Assembly (NCBI RefSeq): GCF_009914755.1
Contig: NC_060940.1
DNA: 64,000 bases
Source of the DNA: the human T2T-CHM13v2.0 reference genome, Homo sapiens
Strand: one strand, 5' to 3'
Shown here in pieces: positions 951 through 64,000 of this stretch. The position numbers and the translations under genes are program-made. How positions within the stretch are numbered: the first letter of the stretch is position 1; each line of letters starts with the position of its first letter. A model generated the notes under the pieces. That model saw only the letters and a list, made by a program, of their open reading frames with translations, did no database searches and was not told the origin of the DNA.

Positions 951-1060
951 TATTCTTGAAGATTTTGCATTCTGTCCCACTATCCATTGGTTTTCATGTC
1001 AAGATAATGTCAGAAATTCTTTACAATTGCTTCCAGAAGGAGTAGCCTTTTGATCTAGTG

Positions 1061-1622: not shown

Positions 1623-1770
1623 GGCCAGGCACAGTGTCTCAGGCCTGTAGTCTTAGCACTTTGGGAGGGGGAGACGGATGTATCGCTTGAGTTCAGGAGT
1701 TGAAGACCAGCCTGGGCAACATACTAAGACTCCGTTTTGTACAATTAAATTAAAATTTAAAAAAAGAAGA
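1623..1770 (+). mobile_element. Alu monomer (FLAM-like)
   Basis: Single left-arm-type monomer GGCCAGGCACAGTG...CCAGCCTGGGCAACATA followed by an A-rich tail, with no right arm. Confidence 0.8.
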
Positions 1771-2644: not shown

Positions 2645-3050
2645 TGAAATGAAATGAAATGATGAAATGAAATGAAATGATGAAATGAAATGATAAATTG
2701 ATGAAATGAAATGATGATATGAAATGAAATGGTGAAATGTTGAAATGAAATGATGACATGAAATTAAATGATGAAATGATGAGATGAAATGAAATGATGA
2801 AATGATGCAATGAAATGATGCAATGATGAAATGGAATGATGAAATGAAATGATGAAATGAAATGATGAAATGAAATGAGGAAATGAAATGATGAAATGAA
2901 ATGATGGAGTGAAATGATGAAATGAAATGATGAAATGAAATGAAAAGATGAAATGATGAAATGAAGAAATGGGATGAAATGATGAAATGAAATGAAAGGA
3001 TGAAATGAAGTGAAATGATGAAATGATGAAATGATGAAATAATGAAATGA
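2645..3050. repeat. (GAAAT)/(GAAATGAT) simple satellite, copy A, truncated by L1
   Basis: Continuous GAAAT pentamers interspersed with GAT triplets; ends abruptly at the L1 5' end. Confidence 0.95.
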
Positions 3051-5156: not shown

Positions 5157-8860
<3,704 letters not shown>

Positions 8861-9189
8861 ACCATGAGAACACGTGGACACAGGAAGGGGAACATCACAC
8901 ACCGGGGACTTTTATGGGGTTGGGGGAGGGGAGAGGGATAGCATTAGGTGATGTACCTAATGCTAAATGACACATGGACACAGGAATGGGAACATCACAC
9001 ACTGGAGAATGTTGTGGAGTGGGGGGAGGGGGGAAGGGATTGCTTTAGGAGATATACCTAATGCTAAATGACGAGTTAATGGGTGCAACACACCTACATA
9101 GCACATGAATACTTATGTTACAAACCTGCATATTGTGCACATGTATCCTAAAACTTAAAGAATAATAATAAAATAAAATAAAAAAAAAC

Positions 9190-23369: not shown

Positions 23370-25394
<2,025 letters not shown>

Positions 25395-27638: not shown

Positions 27639-28062
<424 letters not shown>

Positions 28063-34478: not shown

Positions 34479-35355
34479 TTTTGCCCCCGCTGCCGCGGCT
34501 TTTTGCTTCCGCCGCCGCGGCTTTTTGCCCGCGACTCCGCGGCTTTTTGCCGCCGCCTCCGCGGCTTTTCCCCCGCGACTCCGCGGCTTTTTGCCGCCGC
34601 CTCCGCGGCTTTTTCCCCCCTCTGCCGCGGCTTTTTGTGGTTTTTTGCCCCTGCTCCCGCTGATTTTTCCCCCGCTGCCGGGGCTTTTTGCATCTTTTTG
34701 CCCCCCGCTGCTGTGGCTTTTTGCCACCGTGGCTTTTTGCCGCCGCGGCTTTTTGCCCCAGCCTTTGCTGCTTTTTGATATCGCGGCTTTTTGTCCCCTA
34801 AGCCACGGCTTTTTGCTCTCGCTGCCGCGGCTTTTTGAGGCTTTTTGCCCCCGCCGCCACAGTTTTTGCATCTTTTTTCCCCCGCCGCCGCGGCTTTTTG
34901 CCCCCGCCGCCACGGATTTTGCCGCCGCGGCTTTTTGCCACCGTTGCTTTTTGCCCCCGCCGCCGCGGCTTCTTCCCCGCCGCCGCGGCTTTTTGCGGCT
35001 TTTTCCCCCGCTGGCCCGGCTTTTTGCGTCTTTTTGCCCCCGCTGCCGCTGCTTTTTGCGGCTTTTTGCCCTCGCCGCTACGGCTTTTTGCCATCGCGGC
35101 TTTTTGCCCTCGCTGCTGCAGCTTTTTGCGGCTCTTTGCCCCCGCCGCCGCGGTTTTTTGCATCTTTTTTCCCACGCCTTGGCGGCTTTTTGCCCCCGCC
35201 GGCCGGCTTTTTGCCCCCGCCGATGCGGCTTTTTGCCCCCGCCGGCTGGCTTTTTGCCTCCGCCGGCCCGGCTTTTTGCCCCCACCGCCACTGCTTTTTG
35301 TGCCCACTGACGGGGCTTTATTCCACCGCGGCTTTTTGCCCCAGCCGCCGCGGCT
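34479..35355. repeat. GC/CpG-rich tandem repeat (GCCGCCGCGGCTTTTTGCCCCC)n; reverse strand CAAAAAGCCGCGG
   Basis: ~22-bp unit with ~10-11-bp subunits; dozens of GCGGCTTTTT cores; resembles the CAAAAAGCGGG-type repeats reported at pericentromeric duplication junctions. Confidence 0.92.
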
Positions 35356-35875: not shown

Positions 35876-38524
35876 ATGCGGCAGCTGGAGGACCCGGGAC
35901 CAGCCCTCACCTTGGGCAGGATTTGTGGGGCGGGTGCATGGTGGGAACTGGGATGGAGGCTCCAGGGTCCTGTGGAGGGGTTTGGCTGCGCGTGGACATC
36001 CCCTTACCCCCAGAATTTCCATCTGGTCCAGCCCTCTCATCTTGTAGGTGAGGAAACTGAAGGCCTGAGTGAGAACTGACTTGCCAGGAACCGCTGTTAA
36101 GGAGAATTAACAAAGTGTGGTTATTAAAGGAGAACTGAGTTGGGAGTCAGACCTGGAGGCCCGCACCCTTGGTTAAGACATTATACGACTTTGAGTCTGG
36201 CCTGTTGACTGAGGCTGAGCCACTCCATCCTCGTCTGATTGTGGGGGTCTTAACCTCAAGGGGTTTCCTGCAGGAAGAAGCAGATGGGTTTGCTTTCCTA
36301 GCTCTGTCCAGTACCTTAGGGACCCTGAGGACTGAAGAGATTCTTGGAGAGCCATCTGGTGTATGTCATGGGTGGGCCTTTTTTGAAGGTCAGTCTGCCC
36401 AGTGGGCTGGCTCAGCCTGAATGAACTCTCTTGAATCTTTGGAGTTGTCTGTGTACTTTTAAGGGCTTCTCATCCTTGCACCAAAAGATCCCCTGGAAAT
36501 TAGTTGAGAAAACCTTAACTTTCATGGGGCCTTGTGTTTGTCTTAAAAGTTCATGCACATGGCCAGGTGTGGTGGCTCACACCTGTTACCCTGTCCTGGA
36601 TCCCTTGAGTCAAGGAGTTTGAGACCAACCTGGACAACATAATGAGACCACGTCTCTATGAAAAATAAAATATTATCCAGAGGTGGTTGTGCGCATCTGT
36701 AGTCCCAGCTACGACTGTGGCTGAGGTGGGCGGAGCACTTGAGCCTGCACTGAGCTGTGATCTCACCAGTGTACTCCAGCCTGGGCCACTGAGCAAGAAC
36801 TTGACTCAAAAAAAAAACAAAAAAAACAAAAAAAACAAAAATATTCTTGAAGATTTTGCATTCTGTCCCACTATCCATTGGTTTTCATGTCAAGATAATG
36901 TCAGAAATTCTTTACAATTGCTTCCAGAAGGAGTAGCCTTTTGATCTAGTGCACAGGTGTCCAGTCTTTTGGCTTCTCAGGGCCACATTGGAAGAAGAAT
37001 GCTCCTGGGCCACACAAAAAGTTCCCTAATGCTAACAACAGCTGATGAGCTTAAAAAAAAGGTTTATGCATAATTTTCATGATACCCACCACCACAGATA
37101 GGCGGAAAAGTCCTTTTAGTCAAAGGGTTGGACACGGCTGATCTAGTGTCTTGTCATCCGTTTTGGCTTTCTCCCTGATTCCAGAATGCAGGTAGAGATG
37201 TAGAGACATGCTCTCAGGACAGCTATTGAGATAAAAAAATTCGTTGTCATTTATTCCCAAGCACAGCTGTTTGTCATCTGCATTGAAAAACTCTCCATTC
37301 AAACTGCTGTCACATATAAAACCTATTTATGTAAGTCTGTATTTTTCTGTTTTCTTGGCCTTTGTGGGCAGTAGTGTGTTTTAACCGAGCAAACTGTCCT
37401 TCAAATAATGAAGCCGAAGTCAGCCTACCTGCTTGCCATGTTTCTTCCCCTTTCATTTTTCTAACCTCAGGATAATTGTAAGAATGAATTAAGATTTGTG
37501 TTTAAGGCCGGGCACAGTGTCTCAGGCCTGTAATCTCAGCACTCTGGGAGGCAGAGACGGATGTATCGCTTGAGCTCAGGAGTTCAAGACCAGCCTGGGC
37601 AACATATTGAGACTCTGTCTTGTATAATTAAATTAAAATTTAAAAAAAAAAAGAGGAAAAGACCTGTGTTTCAAATTTAAGAAAAGGGGGGAAGCGTAAT
37701 GCAAAATGCGGACTATGCCAGCTATGATTGGGAAAAATAATTTTTCCTACAGCATTATCTGTAGACTTGTATTAGCAGCATACTGGTCATAAGCGTTTTG
37801 CTTTCCTCAAATATGATGAGGTAAGCTACTTTAATGTGTGGTGGGGCTTTCTTCCACGTGGCTCCTGGAGGTGTTCAGTCCCAATTTAGCCAAATAATTA
37901 GGGTTTAGTTTTGATATGTATAAGGGAGACGAGCTTCATTCATGGTGCACACACAGTTTTGCCAGTAAGGATAAAAAAAAGCAACCTGAATGTTTCCACT
38001 CATTAGATGCTATCTGGAGAGCTCCTACCCCACCCCCACCAAGGCCTGGGCCCTTAAAAAGGCTCAGTGCAGCCTTTCTGTATCTCATACTGTATTCTGC
38101 AAGATGCTCCTGTGAAAGAAAGTTGTGCTGCATCAGCCATCTCCCTCCTGAAGATCCCTGCGGATGAGGATTGGTGTTTTGAAGGTTCTGAGAAGACTGC
38201 AACAACAGTTCTCAAATTTATTTGTTCAGGGGATCTTTTCTTCCACTGAAAGTATTTGGGGAGACATGGCCTTAAGCCTTGAGCAGAGAAAGAGACAAGA
38301 AACTGTTGCCTCACTTACAACCAAGTGTTGTGTTTATGTTTTAGGTTTTTATGAAACTGAGGTGCTGTTTGAGGTTCTAAATGAAATTGGGTGGTTGAAG
38401 AGAGGCTGGTATCCCTGTAGACTTAGCCAGCCATGAGAGGTTGCTTTTTGTTGAAGGAGGTGTTTTACAAAGGGAAATAGGGTGTCTCCTGGGCATCGCA
38501 TTAGCACTTAAATACATGTATCAC
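35876..38524 (+). repeat. Segmental duplication copy B (presumed KSR1 intron 1), paralog of 1-2644
   Basis: Direct colinearity with window 1-2644; includes Alu 36561-36840, MER30 36952-37140 (perfect TSD ATCTAGTG) and FLAM 37506-37650. Confidence 0.95.
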
Positions 38525-39835
38525 TGAAATGTAATGAAATTATGAAAAGACGAAATGAAATGAAATGATGAAATGAAATGATGAAATGATGAAACGACTG
38601 ATGAAATGAAGAAATGAAATGATGAAATGGTGAAATGAAATGAAATGATGAAATGAAGTGAAATGATGAAATGAAATGGTAAAATGAAGAAATGATGTGA
38701 AATGATGAAGTGAAATAATGAAATGATGAAATGATGAAATGAGGAAATGAAATGATGAATTGATGAAATGAAATGAATGACGAGATGAAAAGATGAAATG
38801 AAATGAAATAATGAAATGAGGAGATGAAAAGTTGAATTGATGAGATGAAATGAAGTCATGAGGTGAAATGATGAGATGAAATGAAATCATGAGATGAAAT
38901 GATGAAATGATGAGATGAAGTGAAATGATGAAATGAAATGATGAGATGAAGTGAAATGAAATAAGGAAATGAAAGGATGAAATGATGAGATGAAATGAAA
39001 TGATGAAATGGAATGATGAAATGAAATGATGAAATGATGAAATGGTGAAATGAAATGAGGAAATGAAATGAAATGATGAAATGAAATGATGAAGTAAAAT
39101 GATGAAATGAAATGATGAAATGATAAAATGAAATGAAAAGTTCAAATGATAAAATGAAAAAATGATATGAAATGATGAAATGAAATCAAATGATGAAATG
39201 AAGTGAAATGATTAAATGATGAAATAATGAAATGAAATGAAATGATGAAATGATGGCGATGAAATGAAATGATCAAATGAAATGACGAGATAAAAGATGA
39301 AATGAAATGAAATGATGAAATGAATGATGAGATTAAAAGATGAAATGAAATGAGATGAAATGAAATCATGAGATGAAATGAAATCATGAGATGAAATAAT
39401 GAAAAGATGAGATGAAGTGAAATGATGAAATGAAATGATGAAATGATGAAATGCAAACGATGAGATGAAATGATGAGGTGAAATGATGAAATGATTAAAT
39501 GAAAAGATGAAATGATGAAATGATATAAAATGATGAAATGAAGTCAAATGAAATGATGAAACGAGATGATGAAATGATGAAATAAATGAAATGAAATGAT
39601 GAATTGATGAAAGGAAATGACGAGATGAAAAGATGAAATGAAATGATGAGAGGAAGTGAAATGATGAGATGAAGTGAAATGATGAAATGAAATGTTGAGA
39701 TGAAATGATGTAACGGAATGATGAAATGAAGTGATGAGATGAAATGATGAGATGAAATGAAATGATGAAATGAAAAGATGAAATGAAATGAAATGATGAA
39801 ATGAGGAAATGAAATGAAATGATGAAATAGATGAA
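38525..39835. repeat. (GAAAT)/(GAAATGAT) simple satellite, copy B (~1.3 kb)
   Basis: Same pentamer+triplet composition and same left junction (TATCACTGAAAT) as 2645-3050. Confidence 0.95.
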
Positions 39836-46375: not shown

Positions 46376-49300
46376 AGGCTGGGTGACAGAGTGAGATATT
46401 CTCGAAACAAAAAAAAAATGGAATGGAATGCAGTGGAATGGAATGGAATGGAATGGAGTGGACTCGAGTGAAGGGATTGGAGTGAAGTGGAGTGGAGTGG
46501 AATGGAGATGAATGGAATGTGATGGAATGGAATGAAGTGGAGTGGAGTGGGGTGGACTGGAGTGTAGTGGAAAGGAGCGGAAAGGAATGGGACGGAGTGG
46601 AATGGAGTGGAATGGAGGTCAGTGGAGTGCAGAGGAGGGGAATGGAGTGGAATGGAATTGGATGTAATGGAATGTAGTGGAGTGCAGTGGAGTGGAACAG
46701 AGTGGAATGGAATGGAATTGCATGGAACGGAATGGAATGGAATGCAATGGAATGCAATGGAATGCAATGGAATAGAATGCAATGCAAAGGAAATTTGACA
46801 TGTAATGTGAGCTGAGATTGGGCCACTGCACTCCAGCCTGGGTGACACAGTGATATCCTGTTGAAAGAAAGGAAAGAAATGCAATGGAGTGAAATGGAAT
46901 GGAATGGAATGGAATGGGATATAGTGGAATGGAGAGGAATAGGGTGGAGTGGAGTGGAGTGGAGTGGAATGGAGTTTAGTGGAGTGGAGTGGAATGGAAT
47001 GGGGTGGAGTGGAGTGGAGTGGAATGGAGTAGAGTGGACTGTAGTGGAGTGGAGTGGAAAGGAATGGAATGGAATGGAATTAAATGGAGAAAAGAAATGT
47101 GTGCTGAGATTCTGCCACTGCGCTATAGCCTGTGTGACAGAGGGAGATCCTGTCGAAAGAAAGGAGTGGAATGGAAGGGATTGGAATGGAATGGATTGGA
47201 GTGGAGTGGAGTGGAATTGAGTGGAGTGGAGTGGAGTGGAATGGAATGGAATGGTGAAATGAAATGTGAGCTGAGATTGTGCCACTGAACACCAGCCTGG
47301 GTGACAGAGTGAGTTCCTGTCAAAAGAAAGGAATGGAATGGAATGGAGTGTAATGGAAAGGGATGGAGTGGAGTGGAGCGGAAAGGAGTGGAATGGAATG
47401 GGATGGAATGGAAAGGAGTGGAGTAGACTGGAATGGAGTGGAGTGGAGTGGAATGGATTGGAGTGGAGTGGAGTGGATTGGAATGGAATGGAATGGAATG
47501 GAATGGAATGGAATGGAATGGTGAAATGAAATGTGAGCTGAGGTTGTGCCACTGTGCTACAAGCTGGGTGACAGAGTGAGATATTCTCGAAAGAAAGAAA
47601 TGGAATGGAATGCAGTGGAATGGAATGGAATGGACTGGAATGGACTGGAGTGAAGTGGAGTGGGGTGAAGTGGAGTGGAGTGGAATGGAGAGGGATGGAA
47701 TGGGATGGAATGAAGTGGAGTGGAGTGGGGTGGAGTGGAGTTCAGTGGAGTGGAGAGGAGTGGAATGGAGTGGAATGGAATAGGATGTAATGGAATATAC
47801 TGGAGTGGAGTGGAGTGGAGTGGAAAGGAGTGGAATTGAATGTAAAGGAATGGAATGGAATGGAATGGAATGCAATGGAACGCAATGGAATAGAATGTAA
47901 TGCAATGGAAAGTTGACATGTAATGTGAGCTGAGAATGTGCCACTGCACTCCAGCCTCAGTGACACAGTGATATCCTGTTGAAAGAAAGGAATGGAATGC
48001 AATGGAGTGAAATGGAATGGAATGGAATGGAGTGGAGTGGAGTGGAGTAGAATGGAGTAGAATGGAATGGGATGGAGTGGAATGGAATGGAGTGGAGTGG
48101 AGTGGAGTGAAACAGACTGGAATGGAAGGGGATGGAATGGAATGTAGTGGAATGGTGAAAAGAAATGTGAGCTGAGATTGTGCCACTGCACTCCAGCCTT
48201 TGTGACAGAGTGTGATCCTGTGGAAAAAAAGAAATGGAATGGAATGGAGTGGAATGGAATGGAATGGAGTGAAGTGGAGTGGAGTGGACTGGAGTGGAGT
48301 GGAGTGGAATGGAGGGGAGTGGAATGGAGTGGAGTGGAATGGAGTGGAATGGAATGCAGTGGAGTGGAGTGGAGTGGAATGGAATGGAGCATAGTGGAAT
48401 GGAGTGGAATGGAATGCAGTGGAGTGGAGTGGAATGGAATGGAGTGGAATGGAATGGAATGGAGAGGAATGGAGTAGAGTGGAGTGGAATGAAGTGGAGT
48501 GGATTGGAGTGGAGTGGAATGGAATGGAGTGGAATGGAGTGGAGTGGAATAGACTGGAGTGGAGCGGAATGGAATGGAATGGAATGGAATGGAATGGAAT
48601 GGAATGGAATGGAATGGAATGCAATGGAATGGAATGGAATGGAATGGAATGGAATTGAGAAAAGAAATGTGTGCTGAGGTTGTGCCACTGCACTACAACC
48701 TGTGTGACAGAGGGAGATCCTGTCAAAGAAAGGAGTGGAATGGAAGGGATTGGAATGAAATGGAATGGAATGGATTGGAGTTGAGTGGAGTGGGATTGAG
48801 TGGAGTGGAGTGGAGTGCAGTGGAATGGAATGGAATGGTGAAAGGAAATGTGAGCTGAGATTGTGCCACTGCACACGAGCCTGGATGACAGAGTGAGATC
48901 CTGTCCAAAGAAAGGAATGGAATGGAATGGAATGGAGTGGAGTCGAGAGGAATGGAGTGGAATGGAATGGGATGGAATGGAAAGGAGTGGAGTGGAGAGG
49001 AATGGAGTGGAGCAGAGTGGAGTGGAATGAAGTGGAATGGAATGGGATGGAATGGAAAGGAGTGGAGTGGACTGGAATGGAGTGGAGTGGAGTGGAATGG
49101 AATGGAATGGAATGGTGAAATGAAATGTGAGCTGAGATTGTGCCACTGTGCTCCAGGCTGGGTGACAGAGTGAGATACTCTCAAAAGAAAGGAATGGAAT
49201 GGAATGCAGTGGAATGGAATGGAATGGAATGGAATGAAATGGAGTGGACTGGAGTGGAGTGGAGTGGAATGGAGAGGAATGGACTGGGATGGAATGGAAT

Positions 49301-52300
49301 GGAATGAAGTGGAGTGGAGTGGGGTGGACTGGAGTGCAGTGGAAAGGAGCGGAAAGGAATGGGACAGAGTGAAATGGAGTGGAGTGGAGGTCAGTGGAGT
49401 GCAGAGGAGGGGAATGGTGTGGAATGGAATCGGATGTAATGGAATGTAGTGGAGTGGAGTGGAGCAGAGAGGAATGGAATGGAATTGAATTAAATGGAAT
49501 GGAACGGAATAGAATGGAATGCAATGGAATGCAATAGAATAGAATGCAATGCAAACGAAAGTTGACATGTAATATGAGATGAGATTGTGCGACTGCACTC
49601 CAGCCTGGGAGACATAGTGATATCCTGTCGAAAGAAAGGAATGGAATGCAATGGAGTGAAATGGAATGGAATGGAATGGGACATAGTGGAATAGAGTGGA
49701 ATGGAATGGAGTGGAGTGGAGTGGAATGGAATGGAATGGAGAAAAGAAATGTGTGCTGAGATTGTGCCACTGTGCTACAACCTGTGTGAAAGAGGGAAAT
49801 CCTGTCGAAAGAAAGGAGTGGAATTGAAGGGATTCGAATGGAATGAAATGGAATGGATTGGAGTGGAGTGGAGTGGGATTGAGTGGAGTGGAGTGGAGTG
49901 CAGTGGAATGGAATGGAATGGTGAAAGGAAATGTGAGCTGAGATTGTGCCACTGCACACCAGCCTGGGAGACAGAGTGAGATCCTGTGAAAAAAAAGGGA
50001 TGGAATGGAATGAATTTAGAAGGGAATGTAATGGAGTGGAGTGGAATGGAGTGGAGTGGAGTGGAAAGGAGTGGAATGGAGTGGGATGGAATGGAAAAGA
50101 GTGGAATGGATTGGAGGGGAGTGGAGTGGAATGAATTGGAGTGGAGTGGAGTGGAGAGGAGTGGAATGAAATGGAATGGAATGGAATGGTGAAATGAAAT
50201 GTGAGCTGAGATTGTGCCACTGCACTCCAGGCTGGGTGACAGAGTCATATAATCTCGAAAGAAAGGAATGGAATGGAATGCAGTGGAATGGAATGGAATG
50301 GAGTGGACTGGAGTGGAGTGAAGTGGGGTGGAGTGGAATGGACAGGAATGGAATGGGAAGGAATGAAGCGGAGTGGCATGGGGTGGAGTGGAGTGCAGTG
50401 GAATGGAGCGGAATGCAATGGGATGGAGTGGAACGGAGTGGAGTGGAATGCAGTGGAGTGGAGAGGAGTGGAATGGAGTGGAATGGAATCGGATGTAATG
50501 GAATATAGTGGAGTGGAGTTGAGTGGAGTGGAATGGAGTGGAATAGAATGGAATTGAATGGAGTGGAATGGAATGGAATGGAAAGGAATGCAATGGAATG
50601 CAATGGAATAGAATGCAATGCAATGGAAAGTTGACATGTAATGTGAGCTGAGATTGTGCCACTGAACTTCAGCGTGGGTGACACAGTGATATCCTGTCGA
50701 AAGAAAGGAATGGAATGCAATGGGGTGAAATGGAATGGAATGGAGTGGAGTGGAGTGGAGTGGAGTGGAGTGGAGTGAAGTGGAATGGAGTCAAATGGAA
50801 TGGGATGGAGTGGAATGGAATGGAGTGGAGTGGAGTCTAGTGGAGTGAAATAGAGTGGAATGGAATGGGATGGAATGGAATGCAATGAAATGGTGAAAAG
50901 AAATGTGAGCAGAGATTGTGCCTCTGTACTCCAGCCTTTGTGACAGAGTGAGATCCTGTGGAAAGAAAGGAATGGAATGGAATGGAGTGGAATGTAATGG
51001 AATGGAGTGGAATGTAATGGAATGGAGTGGAATGGAATCGAGTGGAGTGGAGTGGAGAGGGGTGGAGTGGAATTGAGTGGAGTGGAATAGAGTGGAGTGG
51101 AGTGGAATGGAGTGGAATGGAATGGAGTGGAGTGGAATGGAGTGGAATGGAATGGAGTGGAATGGAATGGAGTGGAGTGGAATGGAGTGGAGTGAAATGG
51201 AGTGGAGTGGCGTGGAATGGAATGGAGTGGAGTGGAATGGAATGGAGTGGAATGGTGTAGAATGGAGTGGAGTGGAATGGAAAGGGGTGGAGTGGAGGGG
51301 AGTGGAGTGGAACGGAGTGGAGTTGAGTGGAGTGGAGTGGACTGGAATGGAATGGAGTTGAGTGGAATGGAATGGATTGGAATGGAGTGGAGTGGAGTGG
51401 AGTGGAGTGGAGTGGAGTGGAGTGGAGTGGAATGGAATGAAATGGAATGGAATGGAATGGAAGTGAAGGAATGGAATCGAATGGCATCAAATGGAATTGA
51501 ATGGAATGCGGGGAAGTGGAGTGGAGTGGAATCGAGTGGAATGGAATGGGGTGGAATGGAATTGAATGGAGTGGATTGGAGTGGAGTGGAATGTAGTGGA
51601 GTGGAATGGAATGGGAAGGAAGGGAATTGAACGGAGTGGAGGGGAGTGGAGTGGAGTGGAATGGAATGCAATAGAATGGAATTGTGAAATGAAATGTGAG
51701 CTGAGATTGTGAACTGCACTCCAGCCAGGGTAACAGAGTTAGATCCTGTTGAAAGAAAGGAAGAGAATTGAATGGATTTAGAATGGAGGGTAATGGAATG
51801 GACTTAGATTGGAATGTAATAGAAAGGATTGGAGTGGAGTGGAGTGGAATGGACTGGAATGGAATGGAGTGGAGTGGAATGGAATGGAATGGAGTGCAAT
51901 GGAGTGGAGTGGAATGGAATGGAATGTACTGCAGTGGAGTGGAATGTAGTGGAGTGGAGTGGAATGGAATGGAGTCGAATGGATGGAATGGAGTGGAATG
52001 GAGTGGAGTGGAGTAGAGTGGAATGGAGTGGAGTGGAATGGAGTGGAGTGGAATGGAGTGGAGTGGAGTGGAATGGAGTGGAATGGAATGGAGTGGAATG
52101 GAATGGAATAGAATGGAATGGAATGGAATGGAATCCAATGGAATGGAATGGAATCAAATGGAATGGAATAGAATGGCATCGAAGGGAATTGAATGGAATG
52201 CGGTGAAGTGGAGTGGAGTGGAATGGAGTGGAATGGAATGGAGTGGAGTAGAGTGGAATGGAGTGGAGTGGAATGGAGTGGAGTGGAATGGAATGGAATG

Positions 52301-55074
52301 CAATGGAATGGAATCCAATGGAATGGAATGGAATCAAATGGAATGGAATAGAATGGCATCGAAGGGAATTGAATGGAATGCGGTGAAGTGGAGTGGAGTG
52401 GAATGGAGTGGAATGGAATGGAATGCAATGGAATGGAATCCAATGGAATGGAATGGAATCAAATGGAATGGAATAGAATGGCATCGAAGGGAATCGAATG
52501 GAATGCGGTGAAGTGGAGTGGAGTGGAATGGAGTGGAATGGAATGGGGTGGAATGGAATTGAAAGGAGTGGAGTGGAGTGTAATGGAGTGGAGTGGAGTG
52601 TAATGGAGTGGAGTGGAGTGGAATGGAATGAGAAGGAATGGAATTGAACAGAGTGGAGTGGAGTATAGTGGAATGGAATGCAATGGAATGGAATGGTGAA
52701 AGGAAATGTGAGCTGAGATTGTGCACTGCACTGCAACCTGGTTTACAGAGTGAGATCCTGTCAAAAGAAAGGAAAGGAATGGGATGGATTTAGAATGGAG
52801 TGTAATAGAATGGAATGGAGTGGAGTGGAGTGGAATGGAATGGAATGGAATGGTGAAATGAAATGTGAGCTGAGATTGTGCACTGCATTCCAGCCTGGGT
52901 CAGAGAGTGAGATCCTGTAGAAAGAAAGGAATGGAAAGAAATGGAATGGAATGGAACACAGTGGAATGGAGTGGAGTGTAATGGAGTGGAGTGGAGTGAA
53001 GTGGAATGCAAAGGAATGAAGTGGAGTGGAGTGGAATGGAGTGGAGTGGAGTGGAATGGAGTGGAGTGCAATGGAATGGAATGGAACGGAATCAAAGGGA
53101 ATGGAATCAAATGGAATCGAATGGAATCGAATGAAATGGAATGGAACAAAAGGGAATGGAATGCGGTGAATTGGAGTGGAATGGAGTGGAATGGAATGGG
53201 GTGGAATGAAATTGAATGGAGTGGAGTGGAGTGGAATGGAGTGGAGTGGAATGGAATGGGAAGGAATGGAATTGAACGGATTGGAGTGCAGTGGAGTGGA
53301 GTGGAATGGAATGGAATGGAATGGAATGGTGAAATGAAATGTGAGCTGAAATTGTGCACTACACTCCAGCCTGGGTGACAGAGTGAGATGCTGTCGAAAG
53401 AAAGGAATGGAATGGAATGGAATCAAATGGAATGGAATCAAATGGAATCGAATGGAGTGGAATGGAATGAAGTGGAGTGGAGTGGAGTGGAATGGAATGC
53501 AATGGAATGGAACGGTGAAATGAACTGAGAGCTGAGATTATGCACTGCACTCCAGCCTCAGTGAGAGAGTGAGATCCTGTCAAAAGAAAGGAATGGAATG
53601 GAATGGATTTAGAATGGAGTGTTATGTAATGGAATAGAATGGACTGGAAAGGAGTGGAGTGATATGGAATGGAGTTGAGTGGAGTAGAGTGGACTGGAGT
53701 GGAGTGGAGTGGAATGGAATGGAATGGAATGGAATGGAATGGAATGGAATGGAATGAAATGGAGTGGAGTGGAGTAGAATGGAGTGAAGTGGAGGGCAGT
53801 GGAGGGGAGTGGAGTGGAATGGAATGCAATGGAATGGAATGGAATGGAATGGAATGCAATGGAATGGAATGGAATGGAATGGAATCACATGGAATTGAAA
53901 GAAATAGAAGGGAGTTGAACAGAATCGAATGGAATCGAATCAAATGGAATCGAATGGCATCAAATGGAATCGAATGGAATGTGGTGAAGTGGATTGGAGT
54001 GGAGTGGAATGGAATGGGGTGGAATGGAACTGAATGGAGTAGAATGGCATGGAGAGAAATGGAGTGTAATGGAGTGGAATGGGAAGGAATGGAATCAAAC
54101 TGAGTGGATTGGAGTGAAGTGGGGTGGAATGGAATGCAATGGAATGGAATGGTGAAATGAAATGTGAGCTGAGATTGTGTACTGCACTCCAGCCTGGGTG
54201 ACAGTGAGATCCTGTTGAAAGAAAACAATGGAATGGAATGGATTTAGAATGGAATGTAATGGAATGGAGTGGAGTGGAGTGGTGTGGAGTGGAGTGGAGT
54301 GGAATGGAGTGGTATGGATTGTTATGGAATGGAATGGAATGGAGGTGAGTGGAGTGGAGTGGGGTGGAGTGGAGTGGAATGGAATGGAATGGGATGGAAT
54401 GGAATGGAGTGGAGTGGAGTGGAAAGGTGTAGAATGGAATGGAATGGAATGGAGTGGAGTGGAGTTGGGTGAAGTGGAGTGGAATGGAATGGAGTGGAGT
54501 GGAATGGAATGGAGTGGAGTGGAATGAAATGTAGTGGAGTGGAATGGAATGGAGTGGAATGGAGTGGAATGGAGTGGGTGGGAGTGGTATGGAGTGGAAT
54601 GGAATGGAGTGGAGTGGAGTGGAATGGAGTGGGTGGGAGTGGTATGGAGTGGAATGAAATGGAATGGAGTGGAGTGGACAAGAATGGAGTGGAGCGGAGT
54701 GCAGGGAGTGTAGTGGAATGGAGTGTAGTGGAATGGAGTGGAGAGGAATGGAGTGGAGTGGAGTGGAATGGAGTGGAGAGGAATGGAGTGAAGTGGAAAG
54801 GAGAGGAGTGGAATGGAGTGGAATGGAATGGAGTGGAATGGCATGGAGTGTAGTGGAATGGAGTGGAATGGAGTGGAGTGGAGTGGAATGGAATGGAGTG
54901 GAGTGGAATGGAATGGATTGGAATGTAGTGTAGTGGAGTGGAGTGGAGTGGATTGAAGTGGAGTGGAGTGGAGTGGAATGGAGTGGAGTGGAGTGGAATG
55001 GAGTGGAGTGGAGTGGAATGGAATGGAATGAAATGGAGAAAAGAAATGTGTGCTGAGATTGTTCCACGACGCAC
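46376..55074 (+). repeat. Satellite III-type (GGAAT/GGAGT)n array with regularly interspersed Alu 3'-end fragments
   Basis: Mixed GGAAT/GGAGT pentamers; ~23 copies of GTGAGCTGAGATTGTGCCACTGCACTCCAGCCTGGGTGACAGAGTGAGATCCTGTC followed by GAAAGAAA, all co-oriented. Confidence 0.95.
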
Positions 55075-58000
55075 AATGGAATCGAATGGAACCATCGAAT
55101 GGAATCAAAAAGAATCATCATTGAATGGAATCGAATGGAATCATCATCGAATGGAATGCAATGGAATGGAATGGAATGGAATGGAATGGAATGGAATGGA
55201 ACGGGAGCTGAGATTGTGCCACTGCACTCCGGGCTGGGTGACAGAGTGAGATACTTTTGAAAGAAAGGAATATAATGGAATGCAGTGGAATGGAATGGAG
55301 TGGACTGGAATGGAGTGTAGTGGAGTGAAGTGGCATGGAGTGGAATGGAGAGGAATGGAATGGGATGGAATGGAATGGAATGAAGTGGAGTGGAGTGGGG
55401 TGGGGTGGATTGCAGTGGAAAGGAGTGGAATGGAATGGGATGGAATGGAAAGGAATGGAGTGGAGTGCAATGGAGTGGAGAGGAGTGAAAAGGAGTGGAA
55501 TGGAATCGGATGTAATGGAATGTAGTGGAGTGGAGTGGAACGCAGTGAAATGGAATGGAATTGAATGGAATGGAATGGAATGGAATGGAATGGAATGGAA
55601 TAGAATAGAATGAAATGCAATGAAAATTTTACATGTAATGTGAGCTGAGATTGTGCCACTACACTCCAGCCTGGGTGACACAGTGATATCCTGTCGAAAG
55701 AAAGGAATGGTATGCAATGGAGTGAAATGGAATGGAATGGAGTGGAGTGGAGTGGAGTGGAATGGAATGAAATGGAATGGAATCGAATCGAATAGCATAG
55801 AATGGAATCAAATGGATTGGAATCGAATGGAATCAAATCAAATGGAATCGAATGGAATCGAATGGCATGGAATGGAATGGAATGGAATGGGAGCTGAGAT
55901 TATGCCACTGTGCTCCAGGCTGGGTGACAGAGTGAGATACTCTTGAAATAAAGGAATGGAATGGAATGCATTGGAATGGAATGCATTGGAATGGAATGGA
56001 ATGGAATGGAGTGGACTGGAGTGAAGTGGAGTGGAGTGAAGTGGAGTGGAGTGGAGAGGAGTGGAATGTAGTGGAATGGAACTGGATTAAATGGAATGGA
56101 ATGGAATGGACTCGAATGGAATGGACTCGAATGGAATGGAAGGGACTTGAATGGAATCATCATCGAACGGACTCGAATAGAATCATCATCGAATGGACTC
56201 GAATGGAATCATCATCGAATGGACTCGAATGGAATCATCACCGAATGGACTCAAATGGAATCATCTTCAAATGGAACCGAATGGAATCATCATCAAATGG
56301 AATTGAATGGAATCATCAAATGGAGTTGAATGGAATCATCATCGAATGGAATAGAATGGAATCATCATCGAACGGAGTTGAATGGAGTCATCATTGAACG
56401 GAATCGAATGGAATCATCATTGAATGGAATCAAAAGGAATCATCATCGAATGGAATGGAATGGAGTCATCTAATGGAATCGAATGGAATCATCATCAAAT
56501 GGAATCGAATGGAATCATTGAATGGAATCGAAGGGAGTCATCAAATGAAATTGAATGGAATCATAGAATGGAATTGAATCGAATGGAATCGCATGGAATC
56601 AAATGGAATGGAATTGAATGGGAGCTGAGACTGTGTCACTGAGTTCCAGGCTGGGTGACAGAGTGAGATACACTCGAAAGAAAGGAATGAAATTGAATTC
56701 AGTTGAATGGAATGAAATGGAATGGAGTGGACTGGAGTGGAGTGGAGTGGAGTGAAGTGTAGTGGAGTGCAATAGAGAGGAATGGAATGGGATGGAATGA
56801 AATGAAATGAAGTGGAGTGGAGTGGGGTGGAGTGCAGTGCAGTGGAATGGAGTGGAATTTAATGAGATGGAATGGAAAGGAGTGTAGTGGACTGCAGTGG
56901 AGTGGAGAGGAGTGGAATGGAGTGGCATGGAATCGGATGTAATGGGATGTAGTGGAGTGGAGTGGAGTGGAAAGGAACACAGTGGAATGGAATGGAATGG
57001 AATGGAATGGAAAGGAATGGAATTGAATGCAATGCAATGCAATGCAATGGAATAGAATGCAATGCAATGGAAAGTTGACATGTAATGTGAGCTGAGATTG
57101 TGCCACTGCACTCCAGCCTGGGTGACACAGTGATATCCTGTCGAAAGAAAGGAATGGAATGCAATGGAGTGAAATGGAATGGAATGGAATGGAGTGGAGT
57201 GGAGTGGAGTGGAGTGGAATGGAATGGAATGGAATGGAATGGAATGGAATGGAATGGAATGGAATGGAATTGAAATGAATCGAATCAAATCGAACAGAAT
57301 GGAATCAAATCAAATGGAATTGCATGGAATGGAAAGGAATGGAATGGGAGCTGAGATTGTGCCACTGCACTCCAGCCTGGGTGACAGAGTGAGAAACTCT
57401 CGAAAGAAAGTAATGGAATGGAATGGAGTGGAATGGAATGGAACGGAATGGAGTGAACCTGAGTGGAGTGGAGTGGAGTGGAGTGGAGTGGAATGGAGTG
57501 GAATGGAATCGGATGTTATGGAAAGTAGTGGAATGGAATGGAATAGAATGGACTGGAATGGACTGGAATGGAATGGAATCGAATGGAATGGACTCGAATG
57601 GATTGGAATGGACTCGAATGGAATGAAATGGACACGAATGGAATCATCCTCGAATAGACTCAAATGGAAGCATCATCAAATGGACTCGAATGGAATCATC
57701 ATCAAATGTACACCAAAGAAATCATCATCGAATGAACTCGAATGGAAGTGTCATCAAATGGACTCAAATGGAATCATCATCGAATGGATTCGAATGGAAT
57801 AATCATCGAATGGACTCGAATTGAATTGTGATCACATGGACTCAAATGGAATCATCATTGAATGGACTCGAATAGAATCGTGCTAGAATGGAGTCGAAAG
57901 GAATCGTCATCGAATAGAATTGAATGGAATCATCGTTGAATGGACTCGAATGGATTCATCATTGAATGGACTCCAATGGAATCGTCATCAAATGGAATCA

Positions 58001-61000
58001 AATGGAATCGTCTTTGTATGGAATTGAATGGAATCATCATCAAATGGAATTGAATGGAATCATCATTGAATGGAATCGAATGGAATCATTATAAAATGTA
58101 ATCGATTGGAATCATCATCAAATGGAATCGAAAGGAATCATCGAATGGAATCGAATGGAATCATCGAATGGAATCTAATGGAACAATCATCAAATGGAAT
58201 CGAATGGAATCATCGAATGGAATCAAAAGGAATCAGCGAATGGAATTGAATGGAATCATTATCAAATGCAATCAAATGGAATCATCATTGAATGGAATTG
58301 AACAGAATCATCAAGTGGAACCGAATGGAATCATTGAAGGGAATCGAATGGAATCATGATTGAATGGAATCGAATGGAATTATAGAATGAAATTGAATGG
58401 AATCATTGAATGGAATCGAAGGCAATCATTGATGGACTCGAATGGATTCATCAACGAATGGACATGAATGGAATCATCATCAAATGGACTCGAATGGAGT
58501 CATCATCTAATGGAATCGAATAGAATCAACATCGAATGGACTCCAATGGAACCATCGAAAGGAATCGAATGGAATCATCGAATTTAATCAAAGGGAATCA
58601 TTATCAAATGCAGTCGAATGGAATCATCATCAAAGGGAATCGAATGGAATCATCGAATGGAATCATCGAATGGAATCATCATCGAATGGAATCGAATGGA
58701 ATCATCAAATGGAATCGAATGGAATCGTCAAATGGAATTGAATGGAATCATCATCGAATGGAATCATCAAATGGAATCGAATGGAATCATCATCAAATGG
58801 AATCGAATGGAATTATTGAATGGAATCGAATGGAATCATTGAATGGAATTGAAAGCAATCATTGAATGGACTCTAATGGAATCATCATCGAATGGACATG
58901 AAAGGAATCATCATCAAATGGACTCGAATGGAATCATCATTGAATGGACTCGAATGGAATCCTTATCAAATGGACTCTAATGGAGTCATCATCGAATGGA
59001 ATCGAATGGAATCAACATCAAATGGTCTCGAATGTAATCATCGAATGGAATCGAATGGAATCATCAAATTTAATCGAACAGAATGATTATCAAATGCAAT
59101 CGAATGGAGCCATCATCGAATGGACTTGAATGGAGTCATCATCGAATGGAATCTAATGGAAACAACATTGAATGGACTCGAATGGAATCATCGAATGGAA
59201 TCAAATGGAATCATCAAATTTAATCGAATGGAATCATTATCGAATGCAATCGAATGGAACCATCATCGAATAGACTCGAATGGAATCATCATCGAATGGA
59301 CTCGAATGGAATCATCGTCAAATGGACTCGGATGGAATCATCTTCGAATGGACTCGAATGGAGTCATCATCAAATGGACTCGAATGGAGTCATCATGGAA
59401 TGGACTCGAATGGAATCATCATCAAATGGACTCGAATGGAATCATCATCGAATGGACTCAAATGGAGTCATCGTGGAATGGACTTGAATGGAGTCATCAT
59501 CGAATGAACTCGAATGGAATCAACATTGAATGGACTCGAATGGAATCATCGAATGGAATCGAATGGAATCATCAAATTTAATCGAATGGAATCATTATCG
59601 AATGCAATCGAATGGAACCATCATCGAATGGAATCGAATGGATCATCGAATGGAATCGAATGGAATCATCGAATGGAATGGAATGGAATGGAATCATCAT
59701 CGAATGGAATCAAATGGAATTATCAAATGGAATCGAATGGAATCTTCAAATGGAATTGAATGGAATCATCATCAAAAGGAATCGAATGGAATCATTGAAT
59801 GGAATTGAATGGAATCGAATGTAATTATTGAATGGAATCGAATGGAATCATTGATTGGAATACACTGCAATCATTGAACGGACTCGAATGGAATCATCAT
59901 GGAATGGACATGAATGGAATCATCATCGAATGGACTTGAATGGAATCATCATCGAATGGAATCGAGTGGAATCATCATCCAATGGACTCGAATGGAATCA
60001 TCATCGAATGGACCTGAATAGAATAATCATCGAATGGACTCGGATGGAATCGTCATCCAATGGACTCGAATGGAATCATCATCGAATGGACTCGAATGGA
60101 ATCATCATCAAATGGACTCGAATGGAGTCATCATTGAATGGAATCGAGTGGAATCATCATCCAATGGACTCGAATGGAATCATCATCGAATGGACCTGAA
60201 TAGAATAATCATCGAATGGACTCAGATGGAATCGTCATCCAATGGACTCGAATGGAATCATCATCGAATGGAATCGAATGGAATCATCGAATGGACTCGA
60301 ATGGAATCATCATCGAATGGACTCGAATGGAATCATCATCAAATGGACTCGAATGGAGTCATCATTGAATGGAATCGAGTGGAATCATCATCCAATGGAC
60401 TCGAATGGAATCATCATCGAATGGGCTCGAATAGAATCATCATCAAATGGCTCGAATGGAATCGTCATCCAATGAACTCGAATGGAATAATCATCGAATG
60501 GAATCGAATGGAGTCATCATCGAATGGACCCAAAAGGAATCATCATGGAATGGACTCAAATGGAATCATCATCAAATGGACTCGAATGGAATCATCATCG
60601 AATGGACTCAAATGGAGTCATCATGGAATGGACTTGAATGGAGTCATCATCGAATGAACTCGAATGGAATTATCATTGAAGGAAAACGAATAGAGTCATC
60701 ATCGCATGGAATCGAATGGAATCATCATTGAATGGACTCAAATGGAGTCATCATCGAATGTACTCGAATGGAGTCATCATCAAAAGGACACAAATGGAAT
60801 CATCACCGAATGGACTCGAATGGAATCATCATTGAATGGAATAAAATGGAATCATCATCGAAAGGAATCGAATGGAATCATCATCGAATGGAATCGAATG
60901 GAATCCTCGAATGGAATCGACTAGAATGGAATCCAATGGCATCGAATAGAATCGAATGGAATGGGAGCTGAGATTCTGCCACTGCGCTGCAGTCTGGGTG

Positions 61001-64000
61001 ACAGACTGAGATACTCTCGAAAGAAGGGAATGGAATGGAAAGCAGTGGAAAGGAATGGAATGGAATGGAGTGGACTGGAGTGGATTGGAGTGAAGTGCAA
61101 AGCAGTGGAATGGAATGGGATGGAATGGAATAGAATGAAGTGGAGTGGAGTGGGGTGGATTGGAGTGCAGTGGAATGGAGCAGAATGGAATGGGATGGAA
61201 TGGAAAGGAGTGGATTGGAGTGCAGTAGATTGGAGAGGAGTGGAATGGATTTGAATGGAATCGGTGTAATGAAATGTAGTGGAGTGGAGTGGAACAGAGT
61301 GGAATGGAATGGAATGGAATAGAATTAAATGGAATGGAACGGAATGGAATTGAATGGAATGGAATGGAATGGAATGGAATGGAATGGAATGGAATGGAAT
61401 GAAATGGAATGCAATTGAATGTCATGGAATAGAATGCAATGCAATGGAAAGTTGACATGTAGTCTGAGCTGAGATGGTGCCAGTGTACTCCAGCCTGGGT
61501 GACACAGTGATATCCTGTCGAAAGAAAGGAATGGTATGCAATGGAGTGAAATGGAATGGAATGGAGTGGAGTGGAGTGGAGTGGAATGGAATGAAATGGA
61601 ATGGAATCGAATCGAATAGCATAGAATGGAATCAAATGGATTGGAATCGAATGGAATCAAATCAAATGGAATCGAATGGAATCGAATGGCATGGAATGGA
61701 ATGGAATGGAATGGGAGCTGAGATTATGCCACTGTGCTCCAGGCTGGGTGACAGAGTGAGATACTCTTGAAATAAAGGAATGGAATGGAATGCATTGGAA
61801 TGGAATGCATTGGAATGGAATGGAATGGAATGGAGTGGACTGGAGTGAAGTGGAGTGGAGTGAAGTGGAGTGGAGTGGAGAGGAGTGGAATGTAGTGGAA
61901 TGGAACTGGATTAAATGGAATGGAATGGAATGGACTCGAATGGAATGGACTCGAATGGAATGGAAGGGACTTGAATGGAATCATCATCGAACGGACTCGA
62001 ATAGAATCATCATCGAATGGACTCGAATGGAATCATCATCGAATGGACTCGAATGGAATCATCACCGAATGGACTCAAATGGAATCATCTTCAAATGGAA
62101 CCGAATGGAATCATCATCAAATGGAATTGAATGGAATCATCAAATGGAGTTGAATGGAATCATCATCGAATGGAATAGAATGGAATCATCATCGAACGGA
62201 GTTGAATGGAGTCATCATTGAACGGAATCGAATGGAATCATCATTGAATGGAATCAAAAGGAATCATCATCGAATGGAATGGAATGGAGTCATCATCTAA
62301 TGGAATCGAATGGAATCATCATCAAATGGAATCGAATGGAATCATTGAATGGAATCGAAGGGAGTCATCAAATGAAATTGAATGGAATCATAGAATGGAA
62401 TTGAATCGAATGGAATCGCATGGAATCAAATGGAATGGAATTGAATGGGAGCTGAGACTGTGTCACTGAGTTCCAGGCTGGGTGACAGAGTGAGATACAC
62501 TCGAAAGAAAGGAATGAAATTGAATTCAGTTGAATGGAATGAAATGGAATGGAGTGGACTGGAGTGGAGTGGAGTGGAGTGAAGTGTAGTGGAGTGCAAT
62601 AGAGAGGAATGGAATGGGATGGAATGAAATGAAATGAAGTGGAGTGGAGTGGGGTGGAGTGCAGTGCAGTGGAATGGAGTGGAATTTAATGAGATGGAAT
62701 GGAAAGGAGTGTAGTGGACTGCAGTGGAGTGGAGAGGAGTGGAATGGAGTGGCATGGAATCGGATGTAATGGGATGTAGTGGAGTGGAGTGGAGTGGAAA
62801 GGAACACAGTGGAATGGAATGGAATGGAATGGAATGGAAAGGAATGGAATTGAATGCAATGCAATGCAATGCAATGGAATAGAATGCAATGCAATGGAAA
62901 GTTGACATGTAATGTGAGCTGAGATTGTGCCACTGCACTCCAGCCTGGGTGACACAGTGATATCCTGTCGAAAGAAAGGAATGGAATGCAATGGAGTGAA
63001 ATGGAATGGAATGGAATGGAGTGGAGTGGAGTGGAGTGGAATGGAATGGAATGGAATGGAATGGAATGGAATGGAATGGAATGGAATGGAATGGAATGGA
63101 ATTGAAATGAATCGAATCAAATCGAACAGAATGGAATCAAATCAAATGGAATTGCATGGAATGGAAAGGAATGGAATGGGAGCTGAGATTGTGCCACTGC
63201 ACTCCAGCCTGGGTGACAGAGTGAGAAACTCTCGAAAGAAAGTAATGGAATGGAATGGAGTGGAATGGAATGGAACGGAATGGAGTGAACCTGAGTGGAG
63301 TGGAGTGGAGTGGAGTGGAGTGGAATGGAGTGGAATGGAATCGGATGTTATGGAAAGTAGTGGAATGGAATGGAATAGAATGGACTGGAATGGACTGGAA
63401 TGGAATGGAATCGAATGGAATGGACTCGAATGGATTGGAATGGACTCGAATGGAATGAAATGGACACGAATGGAATCATCCTCGAATAGACTCAAATGGA
63501 AGCATCATCAAATGGACTCGAATGGAATCATCATCAAATGTACACCAAAGAAATCATCATCGAATGAACTCGAATGGAAGTGTCATCAAATGGACTCAAA
63601 TGGAATCATCATCGAATGGATTCGAATGGAATAATCATCGAATGGACTCGAATTGAATTGTGATCACATGGACTCAAATGGAATCATCATTGAATGGACT
63701 CGAATAGAATCGTGCTAGAATGGAGTCGAAAGGAATCGTCATCGAATAGAATTGAATGGAATCATCGTTGAATGGACTCGAATGGATTCATCATCGAATG
63801 GACTCCAATGGAATCGTCATCAAATGGAATCAAATGGAATCGTCTTTGTATGGAATTGAATGGAATCATCATCAAATGGAATTGAATGGAATCATCATTG
63901 AATGGAATCGAATGGAATCATTATAAAATGTAATCGATTGGAATCATCATCAAATGGAATCGAAAGGAATCATCGAATGGAATTGAATGGAATCATCATC
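55075..64000 (+). repeat. Hybrid satellite: HSat2-like (GGAATCATCATCGAAT / GGACTCGAAT) blocks alternating with Alu-bearing GGAAT/GGAGT units; ~5.83-kb higher-order repeat
   Basis: HSat2-type 23/26-bp units at ~55075-55150, 56150-56620, 57600-60960, 61975-62445 and 63430-64000; 55663-58150 is near-identical to 61487-63980. Confidence 0.93.

What the first reader, a model, noticed from the sequence alone, without database searches (positions are those of the whole stretch)
55663..63980. Very young ~5.83-kb repeat mixing HSat2-like and Alu-satIII units, with its boundary inside an Alu fragment
Seen: 55663 onward matches 61487 onward at offset 5824, shifting to 5827 (one extra CAT) and then 5832 (one extra pentamer), with very few substitutions. 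Immediately upstream the copies differ (GATTGTGCCACTAC vs GATGGTGCCAGTGT), so identity begins mid-Alu at ACTCCAGCCTGGG. Inference: unequal exchange used the complex Alu island as the homology register. One unit holds six Alu fragments and two HSat2-like blocks, fusing two normally separately classified satellite families in one repeat.
Basis: partly seen in the sequence, partly recalled or inferred. Interest (0 to 1): 0.7.

Follow-up and report, generated by a model that had tools for sequence, protein, structure and literature searches.

The report
Young 2.5-kb copy inside old satellite
A 2.5-kb piece of satellite DNA near the centre of human chromosome 16 occurs exactly twice, 5.8 kb apart and almost letter-perfect, likely from one ordinary copying event and not as a 5.8-kb tandem repeat; the mix of two satellite types and Alu scraps inside it is far more diverged, likely much older, and also forms a small array on chromosome 7.

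Summary
The near-identical match is real, but it is not a 5.83-kb repeat. It covers only 55663-58151 vs 61487-63983 (2,497 columns, 2 substitutions, 2 slippage indels) and ends 17 bp before the window edge. No 5.8-kb periodicity continues in the next 80 kb. Private variants occur exactly twice genome-wide.

The left edge does fall in an Alu 3'-end island. But both flanks are generic paralogues (88% and 85%), so one case cannot show that the Alu was the register. Best reading: one non-crossover copy event (conversion/SDSA, 0.55). Main rival: unequal crossover followed by deletion (0.3). Direction is unresolved.

The duplication did not create the HSat2/Alu-HSat3 fusion. That fusion is an older module (island, GGAGT spacer, island, island, HSat2 block), 87-95% identical between copies. 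It also fills a 12-kb array at chr7:57.73 Mb, with one-sided junctions at chr7:66.7 Mb and chr17. The event is ordinary; the module is mildly interesting and possibly a relic of HSat2's origin.

The parts
55663..58151 (+). Copy 1 (A) of the young duplicate, 2,489 bp: 3' part of an A-type Alu island, B' island, HSat2 block, a full B-A-B' module, and the first ~590 bp of the next HSat2-like stretch
61487..63983 (+). Copy 2 (A') of the young duplicate, 2,497 bp. Differs by a 3-bp slip, a pentamer slip/swap and one CpG transition (57963 T / 63795 C); a second CpG difference (58152/63984) marks the edge
58152..61486 (+). Single-copy spacer X (3,335 bp): rest of the HSat2 block, B island at 60965, GGAGT-rich spacer, 5' part of the A island at 61466; not duplicated
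55642..55709 (+). A-type Alu 3'-end island holding the left breakpoint interval of copy 1 (last mismatch 55662; first shared private variant 55710)
61466..61533 (+). A-type Alu 3'-end island holding the left breakpoint interval of copy 2
55205..55662 (+). Upstream flank of copy 1 (B island plus GGAGT spacer), 87.8% identical in register to 60965-61486, no closer than other module pairs
55891..55950 (+). B'-type Alu island (twin at 61715)
56156..56564 (+). HSat2-like block (twin at 61980-62391)
56622..57410 (+). Full B (56622) - A (57089) - B' (57348) Alu-island HSat3 triplet (twin at 62449, 62916, 63180)
57643..60881 (+). HSat2-like block, 3.2 kb, period 26, carrying HSat2B marker 24-mers; the right breakpoint of copy 1 lies inside it
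63475..64000 (+). Start of a 10.2-kb HSat2-like block that runs to extended position 73638; the right breakpoint of copy 2 lies inside it
46377..55074 (+). Older Alu-island HSat3 (GGAAT/GGAGT) part of the host array, without HSat2 blocks; it begins and ends at truncated islands

Best explanation
A 2.5-kb stretch of an old composite satellite is present twice (A-X-A', 5.8 kb apart, 99.9% alike at aligned bases), likely because one break was repaired by copying from a paralogous module 5.8 kb away without crossover (gene conversion / synthesis-dependent strand annealing). Shown: the two copies, their ends, copy number two, paralogous flanks on both sides, and the wider composite module (B island - GGAGT spacer - A island - B' island - HSat2 block). 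Inferred: strand invasion began in the A-type Alu island, where paralogues are most alike. Synthesis ran through one and a half modules and rejoined the recipient inside HSat2 by generic satellite homology, likely adding about one module (~1.45 kb) net. Inferred age: within roughly the last 2 million years, with a point estimate of a few hundred thousand; it could be younger if the donor was the homologue. Which copy is the donor is not resolved. No function is proposed; it is likely neutral satellite turnover.
For: Sharp two-sided tract: 2 substitution columns and 8 gap columns in 2,497, against 87.8% upstream and 84.9% downstream. Tract-private motifs occur exactly twice in the genome, so there is no third copy or outside donor (2 exact matches; 2 exact, plus 2 at two mismatches elsewhere on chr16). 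No further periodicity. Both ends join like to like (A island to A island, HSat2 to HSat2). The differences are of natural types: CpG transitions and microsatellite slips. The length fits reported putative conversion tracts (mean 6.26 kb; PMC10172114, passages), and conversion-like mutation is reported inside chrY HSat3/HSat1B arrays (PMC12240836, passages).
Against: The same product arises from a full 5,824-bp tandem duplication followed by a deletion, and one haplotype cannot tell the two apart. PMC10172114 makes a like caveat for deletion plus duplicative transposition, and found few events among duplications over 10% diverged (325 in 66.1 Mb), which is the divergence class here. The right flank is no closer than random HSat2 (score 338 vs 334 +/- 32; 20 of 43 background windows as high), so there is no in-register homology at that end. 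No unconverted haplotype, ape orthologue or reads were available. Donor direction was not resolved.
Confidence: 0.55

Rival explanations
1. Two steps: unequal crossover between the A islands at 55642 and 61466 made a full 5,824-bp tandem duplication, and a later deletion between HSat2 blocks removed the rest of the second unit.
For: The left junction is exactly what an in-register unequal crossover between those two islands would leave. HSat2 blocks vary in length from 230 bp to 10 kb among modules, so deletions within them are common.
Against: It needs two independent events within a time that left only 1-2 point changes. No remnant of the second spacer is seen downstream.
Confidence: 0.3
2. 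Replication template switching (fork stalling or break-induced replication) jumped back 5.8 kb at the island, copied 2.5 kb and switched forward again on short HSat2 matches, without a recombination-type repair.
For: The right junction has only generic, short homology (14 further matching bases after 58152/63984).
Against: There are no inserted, inverted or templated extra bases at either junction. The left junction is in register within extended homology.
Confidence: 0.1
3. Assembly artefact: a false duplication, or a collapsed longer array.
For: Near-identity of the copies; reads were not available. The assembly paper reports coverage anomalies over HSat2/HSat3, which it ascribes to sequencing bias (passages).
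Against: The copies differ at three internal places with mutation-like changes, and all four flanks are distinct. The 8.3-kb span is short for an assembly built from HiFi reads and checked with 120x ultra-long reads, with flagged issues over 0.3% of bases; that HiFi reads run 15-20 kb is recalled.
Confidence: 0.04
4. One reading: a very young 5.83-kb tandem unit that fuses two satellite families.
For: Within the window the match runs to 17 bp from the edge, so it looks open-ended.
Against: The match ends at 63983, the spacer is single-copy and no periodicity follows. The fusion pre-exists on chr7 and chr17.
Confidence: 0.01

Closest known systems
Interlocus (non-allelic) gene conversion in human duplications (Vollger et al. 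2023, PMC10172114; passages read)
   Same: A kilobase-scale tract nearly identical to a paralogous site, with sharp return to older divergence at both ends.
   Different: Here it lies inside a satellite array at 10-15% background divergence, probably changes length by about one module, and is inferred from one haplotype without an unconverted allele.
HSat3 with transposon fragments in the repeat unit (Altemose et al., bioRxiv 10.1101/2021.07.12.452052, citing Bandyopadhyay 2001; passages read)
   Same: GGAAT/GGAGT pentamer arrays that carry an Alu fragment as part of the unit; the island has 97 near-exact matches on 11 chromosomes.
   Different: The passages I read do not describe a unit that also encloses an HSat2 block between islands; the preprint's supplements were closed.
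HSat2 (subfamily B; Altemose et al. 2014, PMC4022460; passages read)
   Same: Period-26 units with ATCATC; exact HSat2B marker 24-mers in the spacer (2) and the downstream block (4).
   Different: Occurs as 0.2-10 kb blocks between Alu islands, not as a homogeneous large array; no marker 24-mer inside the duplicated tract.
Interleaving of ACTCC (GGAGT) repeats with the HSat2 ancestral repeat in reads (PMC11305138; passages read)
   Same: Reports that HSat2Anc, ACTCC and the AATGG2-AGTGG 15-mer form interleaved higher-order structures.
   Different: Read-level and without loci or Alu islands; this window and chr7:57.73 Mb are concrete places where such mixing occurs.
Composite satellites (Hoyt et al., bioRxiv 10.1101/2021.07.12.451456; passages read) and HSat1B (Alu fragment plus AT-rich unit)
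   Same: A unit made of three or more repeat types including a transposon piece, arranged in tandem.
   Different: Small (4 modules here, 8 HSat2 blocks on chr7), old and not homogenised; I could not see whether it is among the 19 annotated composites.

Membership tests
5.8-kb nested tandem repeat / higher-order repeat | At least two complete head-to-tail copies of the unit | tested here: not met
   Only 2.49 kb of the 5.83-kb interval is repeated
5.8-kb nested tandem repeat / higher-order repeat | Periodicity continuing along the array | tested here: not met
   None to extended position 144000; tract-private motifs occur twice genome-wide
Interlocus gene conversion tract | Near-identical tract bounded by older paralogous sequence on both sides | tested here: met
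   99.9% inside; 87.8% left (in register) and 84.9% right (generic HSat2)
Interlocus gene conversion tract | One-way transfer shown against an unconverted haplotype or outgroup | not testable with these tools
   Only one human assembly is held; paralogue comparisons gave no direction
Interlocus gene conversion tract | Single event without crossover (no tandem intermediate) | not testable with these tools
   Needs other haplotypes
HSat2 | 23/26-bp units derived from CATTC with ATCATC insertions | tested here: met
   Tandem Repeats Finder period 26 at 56090-56614, 57627-60962 and 63459-64000
HSat2B subfamily | Assignment by the published k-mer classifier | tested here: inconclusive
   Only single marker 24-mers were counted: 2B exact 2 in the spacer, 4 downstream, 0 in the tract; 2A2 near-matches also occur; the 2A1, 3A5 and 3A6 markers were not tested
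HSat3 with Alu fragment | GGAAT/GGAGT pentamer matrix | tested here: met
HSat3 with Alu fragment | Island derived from Alu | tested here: met
   The first 34 island bases match the 3' end of the window's full Alu near 27869 at 33 of 34; no subfamily call made
HSat3 with Alu fragment | Named HSat3 subfamily | tested here: inconclusive
   Of 9 HSat3 markers counted, only 3A4 matched (1 exact in 46.4-55.0 kb)
Composite satellite (Hoyt definition) | Repeating unit of three or more repeat types, in tandem | tested here: met
   Alu fragment + HSat3 + HSat2 block, tandem on chr16 and at chr7:57.73 Mb
Composite satellite (Hoyt definition) | Listed among the annotated CHM13 composites or cenSat intervals | not testable with these tools
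   Preprint supplements closed; journal versions not held

The most novel reading that the evidence does not exclude
The composite module is a fossil of the birth of HSat2. The 23/26-bp HSat2 unit arose once by mutation of the GGAAT run that follows the B'-type Alu island in an Alu-bearing HSat3 array. It was first amplified as whole modules (the 12-kb chr7:57.73 Mb array and this chr16 array), and only later expanded free of its islands into the kilobase and megabase HSat2 arrays. The young copy here shows that the module still spreads by island-anchored exchange.
Probability: 0.15. Interest if true: 0.6.

Novelty: new member of a known kind. Interest (0 to 1): 0.22.

Why it matters
The young copy alone matters little. 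It is one more conversion-like event in pericentromeric satellite, useful at most as a possible presence/absence marker and as a cleanly bounded example of exchange between satellite modules 10-15% diverged. The older module matters more. If HSat2 began inside Alu-bearing HSat3, then the origin of a 28.7-Mb satellite family (size) becomes datable by the Alu fragment and testable in ape assemblies.

Tried and rejected
1) A 5.83-kb tandem unit: rejected.
2) An older, specific 5.76-kb duplication behind the upstream similarity: rejected. The two upstream flanks (87.8%) are among the least alike of 36 module pairs (range 87.4-95.3%).
3) In-register homology at the right end: not found (20 of 43 background windows score as high).
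4) Donor direction: tried by rare 13-mer diagonals, segment identity, an island tree and derived variants. The signals conflict or rest on recurrent CpG changes. GGACTC density is a weak hint that the left copy is native (15 per kb in the tract vs 12 in the rest of its block and 3 downstream), but block starts may simply be rich in it.
5) Alu islands as a breakpoint hotspot: not shown. The array's left edge (46377) and the junction at 55074 also cut an island, but the chr16 right edge, both chr7:57.73 edges, the chr7:66.7 edge, two chr17 edges, the strand switch and the tract's right end do not.
6) A flank paralogue carrying the ancestral array: none. In 10 of 39 paralogues fetched the flank continues as unique DNA, and only chr7:66.7 Mb reaches satellite within 9.4 kb.
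7) The DNA similarity search of the own genome scored only 3 of 21,487 candidates and missed the true second copy, so it says nothing on copy number.
8) Literature: two searches returned 0 papers (origin-of-HSat2 phrases; satellite 3 / truncated Alu / 16p11). Three wanted papers were not held. The scan's earlier findings were not available.
Full report
1. The observation. The window holds a GGAAT-type satellite from 46377 to its end. Self-comparison gives three strong offsets, 5824, 5827 and 5832. Alignment shows identity starting at 55663/61487, with 11 mismatches in the 61 bases before it. The core 55663-58151 vs 61487-63983 has 2,497 columns, 2 substitution columns and 8 gap columns. The differences are a 3-bp slip at 56465; a pentamer change (5 GGAGT + 11 GGAAT vs 4 + 13, which accounts for one substitution column); and one CpG transition at 57963/63795. 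A second CpG difference at 58152/63984 is followed by 14 matching bases, and then the match ends. Exact runs of 808, 748, 748 and 188 bp stand against a next best of 135 bp in the 43-kb array.

2. It is not a 5.83-kb unit. I fetched the next 80 kb. No 5.8-kb offset recurs out to extended position 144000. Matches at that lag are confined to 4 of 44 one-kb bins. A 40-base motif private to the tract's left end has 2 exact matches in the genome. A 38-base motif near its right end has 2 exact matches, plus 2 at two mismatches elsewhere on chr16. The structure is A (2.49 kb) - X (3.33 kb, single copy) - A'. The match ends 17 bp before the window edge, which is why it looked open-ended.

3. The host array. 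In extended coordinates it runs: Alu-island HSat3 on the + strand (46.4-55.0 kb), mosaic (55.0-63.5), HSat2-like (63.5-73.6), a strand switch near 73.67 kb, HSat2-like on the - strand, Alu-island HSat3 on the - strand to about 89.6 kb, then sequence with a 171-bp period. The islands are the last 55 or so bases of an Alu with its tail; 33 of the first 34 bases match a full Alu in the window. One island type has 97 matches at up to one mismatch on 11 contigs (3, 4, 7, 9, 13-16, 21, 22 and C24, which I take to be Y), and the reversed control has 0. So Alu-bearing HSat3 is widespread. The T2T centromere preprint states that HSat3 often includes ancient transposon fragments in its units.

4. The fusion is old. 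The mosaic is built of a module: B island, about 420 bp of GGAGT-rich spacer, A island, B' island about 250 bp later, then an HSat2 block. Of 23 matches to the B-type motif, 11 lie at chr7:57.73 Mb, 1 at chr7:66.7 Mb, 4 in this array and 7 elsewhere. The chr7:57.73 Mb site is a 12-kb array of the same module with 8 HSat2 blocks of 230-814 bp. Of 19 HSat2 block rows found in the loci examined (chr16, chr7 twice, chr17 twice), 18 start 198-485 bp after a B-type island, and the 19th is a split of one chr17 block. Two of the chr16 rows are the young twins, and a short block at 55075, too small to be listed, follows a truncated island directly. B-to-A segments are 87.4-95.3% identical over 36 pairs, and chr16 modules are no closer to each other than to chr7 modules. 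A tree of 71 islands (93 columns, poorly resolved; islands with indels were missed by the pattern) needs 14 changes of the chr16 label, at least 5 of them forced by supported branches. An exact HSat2-to-island junction pattern gives 8 matches, 7 at chr7:57.73 Mb and 1 here. An exact spacer-to-HSat2 pattern gives 2, both on chr17. These exact patterns undercount. The young event therefore copied an existing composite; it did not fuse the families.

5. Breakpoints. Left: the last mismatch is 55662 and the first shared private variant is 55710. The bases between equal the module majority, so the switch lies somewhere in that interval. With prior divergence of 5-18% it lies at or before 55697, inside the Alu-derived part, with posterior 0.92-0.999. 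Upstream, homology continues in register at 87.8%, which is generic for modules. Islands are 5-6% of the interval and 21% of the in-register stretch, so one hit is not evidence of targeting. Two other junctions in the array cut islands (46377, 55074) and eight examined junctions do not. Right: inside HSat2, with flanks no closer than random HSat2 windows.

6. Mechanism. Best reading (0.55, inferred): a single non-crossover repair that invaded at the A island of a module 5.8 kb away, copied 2.5 kb and rejoined within HSat2. Rival (0.3): unequal crossover at the two A islands giving a full tandem, later trimmed by a deletion. Both give the same sequence, so one haplotype cannot separate them. 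Template switching 0.1; artefact 0.04. Against my reading: reported putative conversions are rare among duplications over 10% diverged, and the right end has no in-register homology. Direction could not be fixed.

7. Age. With one substitution and rates of 1.2e-8 (non-CpG) and 1.1e-7 (CpG) per base per generation and 29 years per generation, the estimate is about 340 thousand years (95% 9 thousand to 1.9 million); with two substitutions it is about 690 thousand (83 thousand to 2.5 million). The CpG rate and the generation time are recalled. A pedigree study gives 1.17e-8 genome-wide and up to 4.94e-8 in centromeres, which would shorten this. 'Young' is fair; 'very young' is not shown.

8. Literature. 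I ran nine searches. I read passages only, never whole texts, of bioRxiv 10.1101/2021.07.12.452052, 10.64898/2025.12.22.696095 (12), PMC11622622, PMC4022460, PMC11305138, PMC11526998, PMC13684623, PMC10172114, 10.1101/2021.05.26.445798 (49), 10.1101/2021.07.12.451456 (55), PMC7767330 and PMC12240836. None of those passages describes this duplication or an island-bounded HSat2 module. Alu-bearing HSat3, GGAAT/GGAGT satellite III, and read-level interleaving of GGAGT repeats with the HSat2 repeat are all in print. The journal version of the centromere paper, the 2022 review of human satellites and the 2007 primate satellite III paper were not held, and preprint supplements were closed. The published satellite annotation tracks may already mark these intervals as alternating HSat2 and HSat3, so absence from print is not established.

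9. The bold reading. HSat2 blocks begin at the same place in the module at four loci on three chromosomes, and the run from spacer into block grades through GGACT and GAATC variants. This fits HSat2 having arisen there. It equally fits one old recombination of existing HSat2 into an HSat3 module followed by amplification. The large HSat2 arrays were not examined. Probability 0.15; interest if true 0.6.

10. Verdict. A real but ordinary two-copy local duplication, misread as a tandem unit because it ends at the window edge, inside an old composite satellite that deserves a short follow-up. New member of a known kind; interest 0.22.

Noticed in passing
L029+L030 = chr7:57,729,500-57,741,700: A 12-kb array made wholly of the Alu-island/HSat3/HSat2 module (8 HSat2 blocks), flanked by unique DNA; it holds an older internal duplication at offset 5,503 of about 90-96% identity.
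   Followed up: partly
window 56674-57191: The RefSeq enhancer listed here lies wholly within a 748-bp stretch identical in both copies. If it was called from uniquely mapped short reads on an older reference, that reference may lack the second copy, hinting at polymorphism. Inference only; two further listed elements were not shown.
   Followed up: no
window 46377: The array's left edge joins a widely duplicated flank (39 paralogues listed at 91-94%) directly to the middle of an Alu island; in the 10 paralogues fetched the flank continues as unique DNA.
   Followed up: partly
window 55050-55150: An island truncated at about +25 and joined directly to a short HSat2-like stretch, unlike the other blocks.
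   Followed up: partly
L011-L013, extended position about 73,670: Strand switch inside HSat2: both halves of the array run from Alu-HSat3 into HSat2 and meet at the switch; two B-type islands lie inside the minus-strand HSat2.
   Followed up: partly
L024 (chr7:66.71 Mb); L001, L002 (chr17:22.29 and 22.40 Mb): Unique DNA, then a short Alu-island HSat3 stretch, then HSat2; at chr7:66.7 Mb a full-length Alu with intact CpGs is inserted in the spacer.
   Followed up: partly
chr1:128.595-128.604 Mb; chr10:42.52 and 43.04 Mb: Island matches whose surroundings were not fetched; candidates for further island-to-HSat2 junctions (70 of 170 matches were not listed).
   Followed up: no
chr22:5,966,000-6,005,400: Island matches recur at about 12.6-kb spacing four times, suggesting a true young tandem of Alu-island satellite.
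   Followed up: no
window 1-3050 and 35876-38959: Direct duplication at 91.5% identity, each copy ending in an ATGAA-type array (2645-3040, 38529-39835).
   Followed up: no
window 7745-8971 and 23994-25222: Paired segments, one inverted (556 bp, 95.7%) and one direct (675 bp, 92.7%).
   Followed up: no
window 34479-35355: GC-rich 22-bp tandem repeat tract.
   Followed up: no
window 59954-60470 and 52122-52530: Smaller recent local duplications inside the array (offsets 182 and 231; 125, 180 and 305) with exact runs of 88-135 bp.
   Followed up: no
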